From the IMG/VR virus record IMGVR_UViG_3300006794_000002: a stretch of 64,000 nucleotides of DNA; one strand, written 5' to 3'. Numbering within the stretch: position 1 is the first letter of the stretch; the number at the start of each line of letters is the position of its first letter. The DNA is from a virus (Duplodnaviria > Heunggongvirae > Uroviricota > Caudoviricetes). This document shows, piece after piece, positions 34,047 to 34,295 of the stretch. The notes under the pieces were generated by a model. The model was given only the letters and a program-made list of their open reading frames with translations, made no database searches and was not told the DNA's origin. The translations under genes and the position numbers were made by a program.

Positions 34047-34295
34047 TTGGTGGCTAGCCGGGGAACGATCCCGGTTGTTCCTAAGAAAACTGATTTACAG
34101 TCAGTCCCCGTTACCTTACGGGCAACGTCGCCACAGCGTAGGCGGCACACCTACATTTGCTTTCCTTTCGGTAAGCGCCACAACTACGGTTAACACCCCT
34201 TTCGGACTGTGCCTAGGTTGCGCCTCCACCATACCAAGTCGCTTACACGTCTCGGCTACAGGCTTATCAATTGTTGGCCCGTTCGTCCAACTCTC
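34047..34295 (-). ncRNA. irregular structured RNA: tRNA-like 3' end (T-arm + ACCA) plus Tyr (GTA) anticodon-like hairpin and GNRA-tetraloop hairpins. Could be a degenerate type II tRNA-Tyr or a tmRNA-like element
   Basis: On the minus strand, 5'→3':
- GNRA hairpins (CC-GAAA-GG twice);
- D-like cccg-taaggtaa-cggg;
- actga-CTGTAAA-tcagt;
- ccggg-AUCGUUC-cccgg;
- CUAGCC-A-CCA.

No canonical 5' acceptor partner was found. Confidence 0.35.

What the first reader, a model, noticed from the sequence alone, without database searches (positions are those of the whole stretch)
34047..34295. 250-nt irregular structured RNA inside the tRNA array: Tyr-anticodon hairpin, non-canonical T-loop, ACCA end, GNRA hairpins
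Read on the minus strand, the region ends …ccggg-AUCGUUC-cccgg-CUAGCC-A-CCA. That is a T-arm with an unusual loop followed by a 6–7-nt acceptor 3' strand.

Upstream it contains:
- a perfect D-like arm (cccg-taaggtaa-cggg);
- a perfect anticodon arm actga-CTGTAAA-tcagt (anticodon GTA, Tyr).

No 5' acceptor strand complementary to the 3' end exists at the expected distance.

Further upstream there are two CC-GAAA-GG GNRA hairpins and other stems.

The options are:
- a tRNA-Tyr with an unusual or split architecture;
- a tmRNA-like element (phages with large tRNA sets sometimes carry one). I could not find an ALAA-type tag reading frame;
- another structured ncRNA.
Basis: seen in the sequence. Interest (0 to 1): 0.7.

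Follow-up and report, generated by a model that had tools for sequence, protein, structure and literature searches.

The report
Odd tRNA-Tyr plus new spacer RNA
The 250-base stretch is two things joined end to end: the phage's own, unusually built tyrosine tRNA that standard detectors miss, and just before it a conserved 163-base folded RNA of unknown function that matches no described RNA family.

Summary
The region is not one RNA, though.

**3' part, window 34048-34132 (minus): the array's tRNA-Tyr(GUA).**
- It sits where five related phages carry a tRNA-Tyr (Met-Pro-[X]-Tyr-Ala-Gln-His-Ile...).
- A 5' acceptor strand does exist (GGCGACG). It pairs imperfectly: a G.A mismatch, a bulged C and a 6-nt 3' strand.
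- The T-loop has A54/U58 swapped.
- It therefore falls below ARAGORN's default threshold and Rfam's threshold (17.9 bits against 29).

**5' part, window 34133-34295 (minus): a separate structured RNA.**
- It occurs once per genome, always between tRNA-Pro and tRNA-Tyr, in five metagenomic phages.
- It is missing, or reduced to a relic, in two further relatives.
- Three helices covary: 95.8% of cells are paired, 10 pairs changed on both sides, and slid controls give 30-56%.
- A pseudoknot is supported by one compensatory change.
- There is no Rfam hit even at E<=10, no conserved reading frame, and no match in GenBank phages, IMG/VR, JGI metagenomes or GTDB genomes.

**Rejected readings.**
- It is not a tmRNA.
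- It is not the Y RNA partner of the phage's Ro60 protein. Four canonical Y RNA-like units lie directly upstream of the Ro60 gene, and presence of the element does not track Ro60.

Function is unknown. My best guess is a stable spacer RNA cut out of the tRNA precursor, which then acts by binding a protein.

The parts
34133..34295 (-). Conserved 163-nt structured spacer RNA between tRNA-Pro and tRNA-Tyr. It starts directly after the CCA of tRNA-Pro and ends 5 nt before tRNA-Tyr.
   Evidence: Homologs sit at the same position in L116 7423-7578, L118 12326-~12515, L251 5797-5963 and L117 12394-12557. Covariance model R1 scores 100-168 bits, with one copy per genome. Covariation is shown. No Rfam hit.
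34273..34291 (-). H1: 5-bp hairpin GUUGG/CCAAC with a conserved 9-nt loop ACGAACGGG.
   Evidence: The stem covaries: GUUGG/CCAAC, GCGGA/UCCGC, GCCGA/UCGGC, GCGUA/UACGC. Four of its 5 pairs changed on both sides. The loop is identical in 4 of 5 homologs. L117 folds this region differently.
34229..34262 (-). H2: hairpin of variable length (absent in L117), flanked by conserved CC-UGUA...(U)AU-GG.
   Evidence: Each homolog folds a hairpin of different sequence and length here. The flanking CC/GG pairs are kept in 4 of 5. I read the flank as a possible tetraloop-receptor-like motif, but that is speculation.
34179..34222 (-). H3 domain: closing helix CGCAAC/GUUGUG around a variable hairpin. In the window the hairpin is capped by the first CC-GAAA-GG (34198-34205).
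   Evidence: The 5 counted H3 pairs are 100% paired, and 2 of them changed on both sides (A-U/G-C; C-G/G-C/G-U/U-A). An invariant G.U pair fixes the strand as minus.
34159..34176 (-). H4: GC-UUA-CC-GAAA-GG-AAA-GC. This is the second CC-GAAA-GG; CGAAAG is invariant in all 5 homologs.
   Evidence: There is no covariation. The outer GC/GC pairs compete with the pseudoknot.
34138..34154 (-). H5: hairpin GUAGG-UGUGCCG-CCUAC. Loop bases GUGCC (34144-34148) can pair with GGCGC (34175-34179) to form a pseudoknot.
   Evidence: The H5 stem covaries: GUAGG/CCUAC, GCGAG/CUCGC, GUGGG/CCCAC, GUAGGG/CCUUAC. Three pairs changed on both sides. The pseudoknot is 100% paired, with one compensatory change in L117 (GGGGC:GUCCC).
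34048..34132 (-). Divergent class II tRNA-Tyr(GUA). Parts: acceptor 5' strand 34126-34132, D arm 34107-34122, anticodon arm 34089-34105, 14-nt variable arm 34075-34088, T arm 34058-34074, acceptor 3' strand 34052-34057, A73 at 34051, CCA at 34048-34050.
   Evidence: ARAGORN calls it only at relaxed thresholds. The Rfam tRNA model gives 17.9 bits, E=0.11 in a 106-nt search. It is syntenic with tRNA-Tyr in L116, L117, L118, L119, L120 and L251. No other tRNA-Tyr is among the 33 tRNAs called.
34296..34373 (-). tRNA-Pro(UGG), the upstream neighbour. Its encoded CCA abuts the first base of the element.
33971..34046 (-). tRNA-Ala(UGC), the downstream neighbour. One base (A, 34047) separates it from the CCA of tRNA-Tyr.

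Best explanation
The region holds two adjacent genes of one tRNA operon.

**(1) tRNA-Tyr, window 34048-34132.** This is the phage's tRNA-Tyr(GUA). It is a class II tRNA with:
- a normal anticodon arm, long variable arm, D arm, A73 and encoded CCA;
- a weakened acceptor stem (G.A mismatch, one bulged C, 6-nt 3' strand);
- a T-loop in which the usual U54/A58 pair is swapped to A54/U58.

**(2) Spacer RNA, window 34133-34295.** This is a separate 163-nt RNA that belongs to no described family. Its fold is:
- a hairpin with a conserved ACGAACGGG loop;
- a variable hairpin;
- a helix closing a second variable hairpin;
- an invariant C-GAAA-G hairpin;
- a terminal hairpin whose loop pairs back to form a pseudoknot.

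**Shown:** conservation, position, secondary structure, absence of a conserved reading frame, absence from known families, and independence from Ro60.

**Inferred:**
- It is transcribed with the tRNAs.
- It is released as a discrete RNA. RNase P cutting at the 5' end of tRNA-Tyr would make its 3' end (the 5-7-nt tail ends in U at position -1). 3' processing of tRNA-Pro would make its 5' end.
- Its invariant loops and junctions, combined with variable peripheral helices, point to a compact RNA that works by binding a protein or other factor in trans, not by base-pairing to a target. I put about 35% on that mode of action.

It is dispensable, because two relatives have lost it.
For: **Synteny**
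- The order Met-Pro-[element]-Tyr-Ala-Gln-His-Ile-Ile-Gln-Arg... is shared by the window, L116, L118, L251 and (partly) L117.
- L119 has Pro-40 nt-Tyr and L120 has Pro-Tyr directly.
- The L119 spacer keeps GAUAGGCUUUGUAG, a relic of GAUAAGCCUGUAG.
- L115 breaks off 14 nt into the element with GAGAGCCGAACGAA.

**Structure**
- 95.8% of cells are paired.
- 10 pairs have changes on both sides.
- No shuffle out of 500 reaches the observed percentage paired, number of pairs or cells changed on both sides, or covariation score.
- Slid controls give 30-56% paired.
- RNAalifold recovers H1, H3, H4 and H5 independently.

**One copy per genome:**

**No known family or relative elsewhere:** (Rfam, down to E<=10; GenBank phages; pattern scans).

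**No conserved reading frame:** an AUG is conserved, but the five sequences read through the invariant core in three different frames. I worked this out by hand from the alignment.

**tRNA-Tyr:**. The same unusual T arm occurs in tRNAs that ARAGORN calls at default settings (Asp, Ile, Met) in other viral contigs.
Against: - Only five distinct sequences are available, and three of them are close. The shuffle control does not correct for relatedness.
- The pseudoknot rests on one compensatory event, and it competes with two H4 pairs and one H3 pair.
- L117 folds its 5' third differently, so only the 3' domain is common to all five.
- There are no expression or end-mapping data.
- Whether the window's tRNA-Tyr can be charged is unknown. 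It scores below both detectors' thresholds, and its acceptor stem is poor. L119 shows similar oddities, which argues against random decay.
- Loss of the element in two relatives shows it is not essential.
- The proposed protein-binding role has no direct support.
Confidence: 0.7

Rival explanations
1. The whole ~250 nt is one stable RNA with a structured 5' body and a tRNA-like 3' end (T arm, acceptor strand, CCA). This would resemble the species 1 RNA (rnaC) of phage T4. The window's tRNA-Tyr would be too defective to be cut out.
For: - The window's tRNA-Tyr is below threshold in ARAGORN and Rfam and has a weak acceptor stem.
- T4 rnaC, which lies in the T4 tRNA cluster, ends in CCGGG-UUCGAAU-CCCGG plus a short tail.
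Against: - In L116, L117 and L251 the tRNA-Tyr next to the same element is called at default settings.
- In L118 it has a perfect 7-bp acceptor stem.
- In L119 and L120 the tRNA exists without the element.
- All tRNA parts, including a 5' acceptor strand, are present in the window.
- The tail before the tRNA ends in U(-1) in all five.
Confidence: 0.08
2. The 163-nt element is a Y RNA: an RNA partner of the phage-encoded Ro60 (TROVE) protein, whose gene lies 4.3 kb upstream on the same strand.
For: - A Ro60 gene lies at window 38609-40213 on the same strand.
- Published bacterial and phage Y RNAs lie within about 4 kb of Ro60 on the same strand and carry a CGAA-type motif (PMC4201824, PMC12135203).
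- The element has an invariant CGAAAG, and ACGAAC in 4 of 5 homologs.
Against: - Four Y RNA-like units with their own shared signature (GAUGCGWAG...GUUACUUC...CUUGUUC, some with permuted T arm, closed acceptor and D arm) fill the gap directly upstream of Ro60, in the window and in all six related Ro60-carrying loci checked. The element has none of that signature.
- Its CGAA motifs sit in hairpin loops, and its ends do not form a terminal stem.
- L119 and L120 have Ro60 and the Y units but no element.
- L251/L252 have the element but no Ro60 at the syntenic position and no Y signature in the part of the contig read.
Confidence: 0.06
3. The element acts in cis on its own precursor. It could be a self-cleaving ribozyme that cuts at its own 5' edge and so creates the CCA end of tRNA-Pro, as HDV-like 'theta' ribozymes next to phage tRNAs are reported to do (from my own knowledge). 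Or it could be a folding insulator or leader that helps RNase P process the awkward tRNA-Tyr.
For: - The element starts at the base after the CCA of tRNA-Pro in all five genomes and ends 5-7 nt before tRNA-Tyr.
- A pseudoknotted core with invariant junction nucleotides and variable peripheral helices is typical of small ribozymes.
Against: - No segment of any homolog can pair with its first 6-7 nt, so the P1 helix that defines HDV-like ribozymes is absent.
- No ribozyme family in Rfam matches at E<=10.
- Most neighbouring tRNAs in the array are only 1-3 nt apart and are processed without such an element.
- L119, with a similarly odd tRNA-Tyr, has lost the element.
Confidence: 0.15
4. The region is a tmRNA-like gene.
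For: - It has a T arm, an acceptor 3' strand and CCA at its 3' end.
- It contains a pseudoknot.
- ARAGORN at 80% threshold prints a permuted 'tmRNAp'.
Against: - There is no tmRNA call at default settings.
- The relaxed call spans part of tRNA-Pro.
- Rfam gives only a 10.4-bit, E=7.9 fragment over tRNA-Pro.
- No tag frame is conserved.
- The 3' tRNA half belongs to a complete tRNA-Tyr.
Confidence: 0.01
5. The element is a decaying relic with no function, for example a degenerate tRNA gene or the remains of an intron or mobile element.
For: - It is lost or reduced in two relatives.
- It has a narrow distribution.
- No function can be assigned.
Against: - Compensatory changes keep three helices intact across phages whose Ro60 proteins are only 62-74% identical to the window's.
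- Long invariant stretches sit next to freely varying hairpins.
- There is no tRNA-model hit in the element.
Confidence: 0.08

Closest known systems
Bacterial-type class II tRNA-Tyr(GUA)
   Same: For the 3' 85 nt: anticodon loop CUGUAAA, 5-bp anticodon stem, long variable arm, D loop with GG, 5-bp T stem with a 7-nt loop, A73 and CCA. It also holds the syntenic position of tRNA-Tyr in relatives.
   Different: The acceptor stem has a G.A mismatch, a bulged C and only 6 nt in its 3' strand. There is an extra base between the acceptor and D stems. The T-loop is AUCGUUC (A54/U58) instead of UUCGAAU. It scores below the thresholds of ARAGORN and Rfam.
Small stable RNAs of the phage T4 tRNA cluster (rnaC/species 1, rnaD/species 2)
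   Same: They are non-tRNA RNAs of 119-139 nt that lie among tRNA genes on the same strand, and GenBank annotates them only as 'small, stable RNA'. This is the same kind of genomic arrangement.
   Different: There is no sequence or structure similarity: model R1 gives nothing above 4 bits on the T4 region. The T4 RNAs end in tRNA-like 3' ends. The element does not.
Y RNAs of bacteria and phages (YrlA type), partners of Ro60
   Same: The element lies in a phage that encodes Ro60, on the same strand and about 4 kb away. It contains CGAA motifs and is of similar size.
   Different: It has no terminal stem formed by its 5' and 3' ends and no permuted tRNA-like module. It lacks the signature shared by the Y units upstream of the Ro60 gene. 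Its presence does not track Ro60.
Functional spacer RNAs released from bacterial tRNA operons (E. coli RtT from tyrT; 3'ETS of leuZ). This comparison comes from my own knowledge and was not tested here.
   Same: These are RNAs that come from transcribed spacers of tRNA operons and are freed by tRNA processing.
   Different: The bacterial examples are unrelated in sequence. The known mode of action of the leuZ spacer is base-pairing as a sponge, whereas the element looks like a compact tertiary fold.
tmRNA
   Same: If the element and the tRNA are read together, there is a pseudoknot and a tRNA-like 3' end.
   Different: There is no tRNA-like domain closed by the two ends, no conserved tag frame and no detector hit.

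Membership tests
tRNA (class II tRNA-Tyr) | Anticodon arm: 5-bp stem, 7-nt loop with U33, anticodon GUA, purine at 37 | tested here: met
   ACUGA-CUGUAAA-UCAGU at 34089-34105.
tRNA (class II tRNA-Tyr) | Seven-base-pair acceptor stem, discriminator A73, CCA end | tested here: inconclusive
   A73 and CCA are present. The stem has 5 Watson-Crick pairs, one G.A mismatch and one bulged C, with a 6-nt 3' strand. ARAGORN's alternative register has 5 of 7 pairs.
tRNA (class II tRNA-Tyr) | T arm with the UUCRANY loop, and a D loop with GG | tested here: inconclusive
   The stem is perfect and the D loop has GG. The T-loop is AUCGUUC (A54/U58 swapped). The identical T arm lies inside tRNAs called at default settings (Asp, Ile, Met) at 12 of 25 matches in IMG/VR.
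tRNA (class II tRNA-Tyr) | Score above detector thresholds | tested here: not met
   No call at ARAGORN's default. It is called at the relaxed 90% and 80% settings. The Rfam tRNA model gives 17.9 bits against a gathering score of 29.
tRNA (class II tRNA-Tyr) | Orthologous position to tRNA-Tyr genes in related genomes | tested here: met
   tRNA-Tyr follows tRNA-Pro in L116, L117, L118, L119, L120 and L251, and directly precedes tRNA-Ala in L116, L118, L119 and L251.
tRNA (class II tRNA-Tyr) | Aminoacylation with tyrosine and use in translation | not testable with these tools
   Needs charging and RNase P assays.
tmRNA | tRNA-like domain formed by pairing of the 5' and 3' ends | tested here: not met
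   The 5' end GAGAG... has no complement to the 3' acceptor strand. The 3' strand pairs with GGCGACG of the adjacent tRNA.
tmRNA | Conserved tag-peptide reading frame ending in a stop codon | tested here: not met
   The five homologs read the conserved core in three different frames, and their stop codons are at different places (my own reading of the alignment).
tmRNA | Detection by ARAGORN or the Rfam tmRNA models | tested here: not met
   Only spurious relaxed-threshold calls appear.
Y RNA (YrlA type) | Stem formed by the 5' and 3' ends, carrying the Ro60-binding GNCGAA/CGAA motif | tested here: not met
   CGAA occurs, but in the H1 loop and the H4 tetraloop. There is no consistent terminal duplex, and the candidate duplexes compete with the covarying H1 and H5.
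Y RNA (YrlA type) | Permuted tRNA-like module (T arm, closed acceptor hairpin, D arm) | tested here: not met
   Absent from the 163-nt element. Present in units upstream of the Ro60 gene.
Y RNA (YrlA type) | Encoded near Ro60 on the same strand, and occurring together with it | tested here: not met
   It is on the same strand, 4.3 kb away. But L119 and L120 have Ro60 without the element, and L251/L252 have the element without Ro60 at the syntenic site.
Y RNA (YrlA type) | Binding to Ro60 | not testable with these tools
   Needs a pull-down or gel-shift assay.
HDV-like (theta) self-cleaving ribozyme | P1 helix that starts at the first nucleotide and pairs with a downstream strand, within a nested double pseudoknot | tested here: not met
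   No 6- or 7-nt segment in any of the five homologs can pair with the first 6-7 nt. No Rfam ribozyme hit.
HDV-like (theta) self-cleaving ribozyme | Self-cleavage | not testable with these tools
   Needs an in vitro transcription and cleavage assay.
Any Rfam 15 family | Covariance-model match | tested here: not met
   Nothing at E<=10 for the element in L251 or L117. In the window, two chance-level matches with E above 1 (SorX on the opposite strand, 13.8 bits; tmRNA_permuted, 10.4 bits) run from a neighbouring tRNA gene into one end of the region; neither recurs in the homologs.

The most novel reading that the evidence does not exclude
The 163-nt element is the founding member of a new class of functional RNA carried in phage tRNA operons. 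It could be a new self-cleaving or processing ribozyme that shapes the ends of the flanking tRNAs. Or it could be a compact decoy or scaffold RNA that captures a host tRNA-processing, tRNA-modifying or tRNA-cleaving defence protein during infection.
Probability: 0.15. Interest if true: 0.75.

Novelty: new variant of a known kind. Interest (0 to 1): 0.48.

Why it matters
**For annotation.** A phage that appears to lack tRNA-Tyr does have one. Standard tools miss it, and they also miss a tRNA-Ser in the same array. tRNAs with an A54/U58-swapped T-loop seem to recur in phages.

**For biology.** Non-tRNA RNAs inside phage tRNA clusters have been known since the T4 species 1 and 2 RNAs, and the T4 record still describes those only as small, stable RNAs. 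Here is a second, unrelated example with a well-supported fold, a clear presence/absence pattern among relatives, and defined processing boundaries. That makes it a tractable case for asking what such RNAs do. Its narrow distribution and unknown function limit the immediate impact.

Tried and rejected
**Hypotheses rejected**
- **tmRNA.** No call from ARAGORN at default or from Rfam. The relaxed-threshold calls are spurious.
- **tRNA with an intron, or split tRNA.** ARAGORN intron mode finds only the contiguous tRNA-Tyr.
- **Y RNA.** This lead came from the Ro60 gene found. It was rejected after finding the true Y RNA-like units upstream of Ro60 and the decoupled presence pattern.
- **HDV-like ribozyme.** There is no P1 partner for the 5' end.
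- **Small protein gene.** The frame is not conserved.
- **Resemblances noted by eye.** SRP RNA domain IV (CC-GNRA-GG-AAGCA), RNase P conserved regions, 5S rRNA, twister, ZTP, and the 11-nt GAAA receptor (UAUGG). None is collinear or backed by an Rfam hit at E<=10, so I treat them as chance or unproven.
- **Internal promoter at GTATGGT.** It is not conserved in L117 and the scan does not call it.

**Searches for more homologs that found nothing**
- GenBank phages by megablast and blastn.
- IMG/VR by five patterns.
- JGI metagenomes by two patterns.
- GTDB genomes by two patterns. The loose pattern gave only chance matches.
- 43 other Ro60-carrying viral loci, searched with the covariance model.
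- The T4 tRNA cluster.

**Dead ends**
- Close relatives of the thymidine kinase had contigs too short to reach the element.
- Two ThyX relatives (L249, L250) have no tRNA array at that position.
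Full report
**Setting.** The window is almost the whole of an ENA metagenome contig (ERZ27285877 k141_2193779, 64,269 bp).
- It is a tailed-phage genome with terminase, portal and an SU10-like capsid protein.
- On the minus strand it carries, in order: a Ro60/TROVE gene (38609-40213), ribonucleotide reductase, ThyX and thymidine kinase.
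- These are followed by an array of 33 tRNA genes called by ARAGORN (30313-34453).
- It has no close relative among GenBank phages. Its portal is only 23% identical to portals of Streptomyces phages.
- The finding is the 249-nt gap between tRNA-Pro (34296-34373) and tRNA-Ala (33971-34046).
- None of the 33 called tRNAs reads tyrosine codons.

**Checking the observation.**
- At default settings ARAGORN and Rfam call nothing in the gap. Rfam finds nothing above chance level even at E<=10.
- Folding energy is only mildly better than shuffled sequence, z about -1.9. Thermodynamics alone would not have settled anything.
- With ARAGORN relaxed to 90% of its threshold, an 85-nt tRNA-Tyr(GUA) appears at the 3' end of the gap.
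- Given only 106 nt, the Rfam tRNA model aligns 34051-34132 end to end at 17.9 bits against a gathering score of 29.
- In that alignment the acceptor is GGCGACG / C-UAGCC. There are five Watson-Crick pairs, a G4.A69 mismatch and a bulged C6, followed by A73 and CCA.
The strand is there but pairs poorly.

**Relatives.**
- Short DNA patterns taken from the region found only unrelated tRNAs in IMG/VR.
- Close relatives of the thymidine kinase sit on contigs too short to help. One of them (L115) does end 14 nt past tRNA-Pro with GAGAGCCGAACGAA, which is the start of the element.
- The productive route was proteins. Homologs of the Ro60 protein and of ThyX led to syntenic contigs.
- Four of these contigs have the same order, tRNA-Met, tRNA-Pro, a 156-190-nt non-tRNA stretch, then tRNA-Tyr:

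| Locus | Ro60 identity | Element |
|---|---|---|
| L116 | 74% | 7423-7578 |
| L118 | 67% | 12326-~12515 |
| L117 | 62% | 12394-12557 |
| L251 (= L252) | none found | 5797-5963 |

- This order is followed by tRNA-Ala and the rest of the array.
- Two others lack the stretch. L119 has 40 nt between Pro and Tyr, including GAUAGGCUUUGUAG, which matches GAUAAGCCUGUAG of the element and so looks like a deletion relic. L120 has Pro and Tyr adjacent.
- The finding therefore splits into a tRNA-Tyr gene and an upstream element that can be present or absent.

**The tRNA-Tyr.**
- In L116, L117, L119, L120 and L251 ARAGORN calls the orthologous tRNA at default settings. In L118 and in the window it needs a relaxed threshold.
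- These tRNAs vary in the acceptor and D region. L120, L118 and L251 have clean acceptor stems. L116 has one C.U mismatch. L117 has G1.A72.
- The window and L119 share the pattern (U)GGC....UUGCC / C(U/A)AGCC-A-CCA, with a short 3' strand.
- Two diverged phages share that oddity, which argues against simple decay. Function is still untested.
- The window's T-loop AUCGUUC swaps the usual U54/A58 pair to A54/U58.
- The identical 17-nt T arm occurs 25 times in IMG/VR. Twelve of those lie inside tRNAs that ARAGORN calls at default settings (Asp, Ile, Met). One more is an evident tRNA-Tyr with a long variable arm.
- So this is a recurring phage tRNA variant, not a defect unique to this gene.

**The 163-nt element (34133-34295).** A MAFFT alignment of the five homologs and RNAalifold on four of them agree on the fold:
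- **H1:** a 5-bp hairpin with the loop ACGAACGGG.
- **H2:** a hairpin of freely varying length, missing in L117.
- **H3:** a helix closing a second variable hairpin, which carries a GAAA cap in the window and in L251.
- **H4:** a small hairpin with the invariant sequence CGAAAG.
- **H5:** a 5-6-bp hairpin with the loop UGUGCCG.
- **Pseudoknot:** the loop bases GUGCC can pair with GGCGC just after H3. In L117 both sides change together (GGGGC with GUCCC).

Counting pairs on this structure gives:
- 95.8% of cells are paired.
- 10 of 24 pairs changed on both sides.
- No shuffle out of 500 reaches the observed percentage paired, number of pairs or cells changed on both sides, or covariation score.
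- Only 30-56% are paired when the 3' partners are slid by 1-3 columns.
- H1, H3 and H5 each have two to four pairs with changes on both sides.
- H4 and the pseudoknot are mostly invariant, so they stay provisional. They also compete for two nucleotides.

An invariant G.U pair in H3 fixes the strand as that of the tRNAs. Single-sequence folds of each homolog recover the same helices. L117 folds its first third differently, so the part common to all five is the 3' domain, from AGGCGCA to H5.

**What the element is not.**
- *Not a protein gene.* An AUG is conserved (GUAUGG, or CUAUGC in L117), but the reading frames through the invariant core fall into three different phases, and the stop codons differ.
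- *Not a tmRNA.* There is no detector hit. The ends do not pair. The downstream tRNA half belongs to a complete tRNA.
- *Not an HDV-like ribozyme of the kind reported next to phage tRNAs.* Nothing can pair with its first 6-7 nt.
- *Not related to the T4 rnaC or rnaD RNAs* that sit in the T4 tRNA cluster.
- *Not in any Rfam 15 family at E<=10.* L251 and L117 give nothing at all. The window gives only two chance-level matches that run in from the neighbouring tRNA genes.
- *No further copies.* A covariance model built from four homologs finds exactly one copy in each of the five genomes. It finds none in 43 other Ro60-carrying viral loci, in the other collected loci, or elsewhere in the window.
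- *No hits in larger collections.* Pattern scans of IMG/VR, JGI metagenomes and GTDB genomes, and blastn against GenBank phages, found no further member.

**The Ro60 lead.**
- A Ro60 gene 4.3 kb upstream on the same strand made a Y RNA the most attractive hypothesis. Published bacterial and phage Y RNAs lie within about 4 kb of Ro60, carry a CGAA-type motif and often mimic tRNA (PMC4201824; PMC12135203; bioRxiv 10.1101/312249).
- It fails for three reasons.
  1. The noncoding gap directly upstream of Ro60 holds a tandem set of Y RNA-like units, in the window and in all six related loci checked. There are four in the window, starting near 40696, 40585, 40423 and 40273. Each opens with GAUGCG(A/U)AG...G(U/A)UACUUC and closes with CUUGU(U/C)C. 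Several have a YrlA-style T arm, closed acceptor hairpin and D arm. The element has none of this.
  2. Its CGAA motifs sit in hairpin loops, not in a terminal stem.
  3. Presence is decoupled both ways. L119 and L120 have Ro60 and the Y units but no element. L251/L252 have the element but no Ro60 and no Y signature at the syntenic place, within the part of the contig that could be read.

**How it most likely works.**
- *Shown:* the element lies inside a run of same-strand tRNA genes. An extended -10-like TGATACAAT (34459-34467) sits just before tRNA-Met (my reading; the scan did not call it). A terminator-like hairpin follows the last tRNA.
- *Inferred:* it is transcribed with the tRNAs.
  - RNase P cleavage at G34132 would set its 3' end. 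The 5-7-nt tail ends in U at -1 in all five homologs.
  - Maturation of the tRNA-Pro 3' end would set its 5' end.
- Invariant loops and junctions (ACGAACGGG, UGGAGG, CGAAAG, AAAGCAAAU, UGUGCCG) combined with length-variable peripheral hairpins are the pattern of a compact tertiary fold recognised by a protein or ligand. It is not the pattern of an antisense RNA.
- I therefore favour a trans-acting, protein-binding spacer RNA (about 35%).
- Next come a cis-acting processing element or ribozyme (about 15%), a functionless relic (about 8%), one 250-nt RNA (about 8%) and a Y RNA (about 6%).
- The element is dispensable, since two relatives lack it.

**Verdict.**
- The tRNA part is ordinary biology with an unusual build. 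It is a useful annotation correction.
- The upstream part is a new, narrowly distributed structured RNA family with good comparative support and no known function.
- It is the same kind of thing as the long-unexplained stable RNAs of the T4 tRNA cluster, but unrelated to them.

Noticed in passing
window ~40214-40700, minus strand (also L116 1379-1930, L117 4192-4876, L118 5978-6277, L119 2814-3418, L120 7129-8028, L121 8384-8779): A tandem set of Y RNA-like units lies directly upstream of the phage Ro60/TROVE gene. There are four in the window, starting near 40696, 40585, 40423 and 40273. Each opens with GAUGCG(A/U)AG...G(U/A)UACUUC and closes with CUUGU(U/C)C. Some have a permuted tRNA-like module (T arm GUUCGAAUC, closed acceptor hairpin, D arm GGUGUAGUGGUAAC). 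Rfam 15 gives no hit there. ARAGORN miscalls two of them in L120 as odd tRNAs.
   Followed up: partly
window ~32233-32320, minus strand: A second tRNA missed by ARAGORN and Rfam. The 136-nt gap 32232-32367 contains GGAGAGUCGCACUGGUGCGC...CUUGAAAAC...GGGGGUUCGAAUCCACUCACUCUCCGCCA. It is 81% identical to the tRNA-Ser(UGA) called in L251 7986-8072.
   Followed up: partly
L047-L049, L051, L052, L056-L058, L060, L064, L068 (IMG/VR contigs): The unusual T arm CCGGG-AUCGUUC-CCCGG (A54/U58 in place of U54/A58) recurs in tRNAs that ARAGORN calls at default settings (Asp, Ile, Met) in unrelated viral contigs. It also occurs in an uncalled tRNA-Tyr-like sequence in L055. This may be a phage-specific T-loop variant.
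   Followed up: partly
window 31672-31869, 32935-33108 and 30816-31034, minus strand: Larger gaps in the tRNA array hold short reading frames instead of conserved RNA. One is a 23-codon hydrophobic peptide (MGILGLVIVIVIVVLAMKACGLF) preceded by GGAGG. One is a Cys-rich frame (MKDYDDYGCGDCCCGFHGG...). One is a Thr/Pro-rich frame. None matched the relatives by blastn.
   Followed up: no
window 33869-33970, minus strand: The 102-nt gap between tRNA-Ala and tRNA-Gln folds into three strong hairpins (-41 kcal/mol). It has no blastn match in the six relatives.
   Followed up: no
window 34459-34467 (minus); also upstream of the Y RNA-like units near 40700-40720: Extended -10-like promoter elements (TGATACAAT before tRNA-Met; TGTGGTATAGT before the first Y unit; similar ones in L115 and L120). 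These suggest separate transcription units for the Y RNA set and the tRNA array. The consensus scan did not call them.
   Followed up: no
43 IMG/VR loci L072-L114: Ro60 genes in viral contigs often lie next to large tRNA arrays (L079, L084, L089, L098, L099, L109, L110). Several others have a single odd 'tRNA' call within 700 nt upstream of Ro60, probably Y RNA tRNA-like modules.
   Followed up: no
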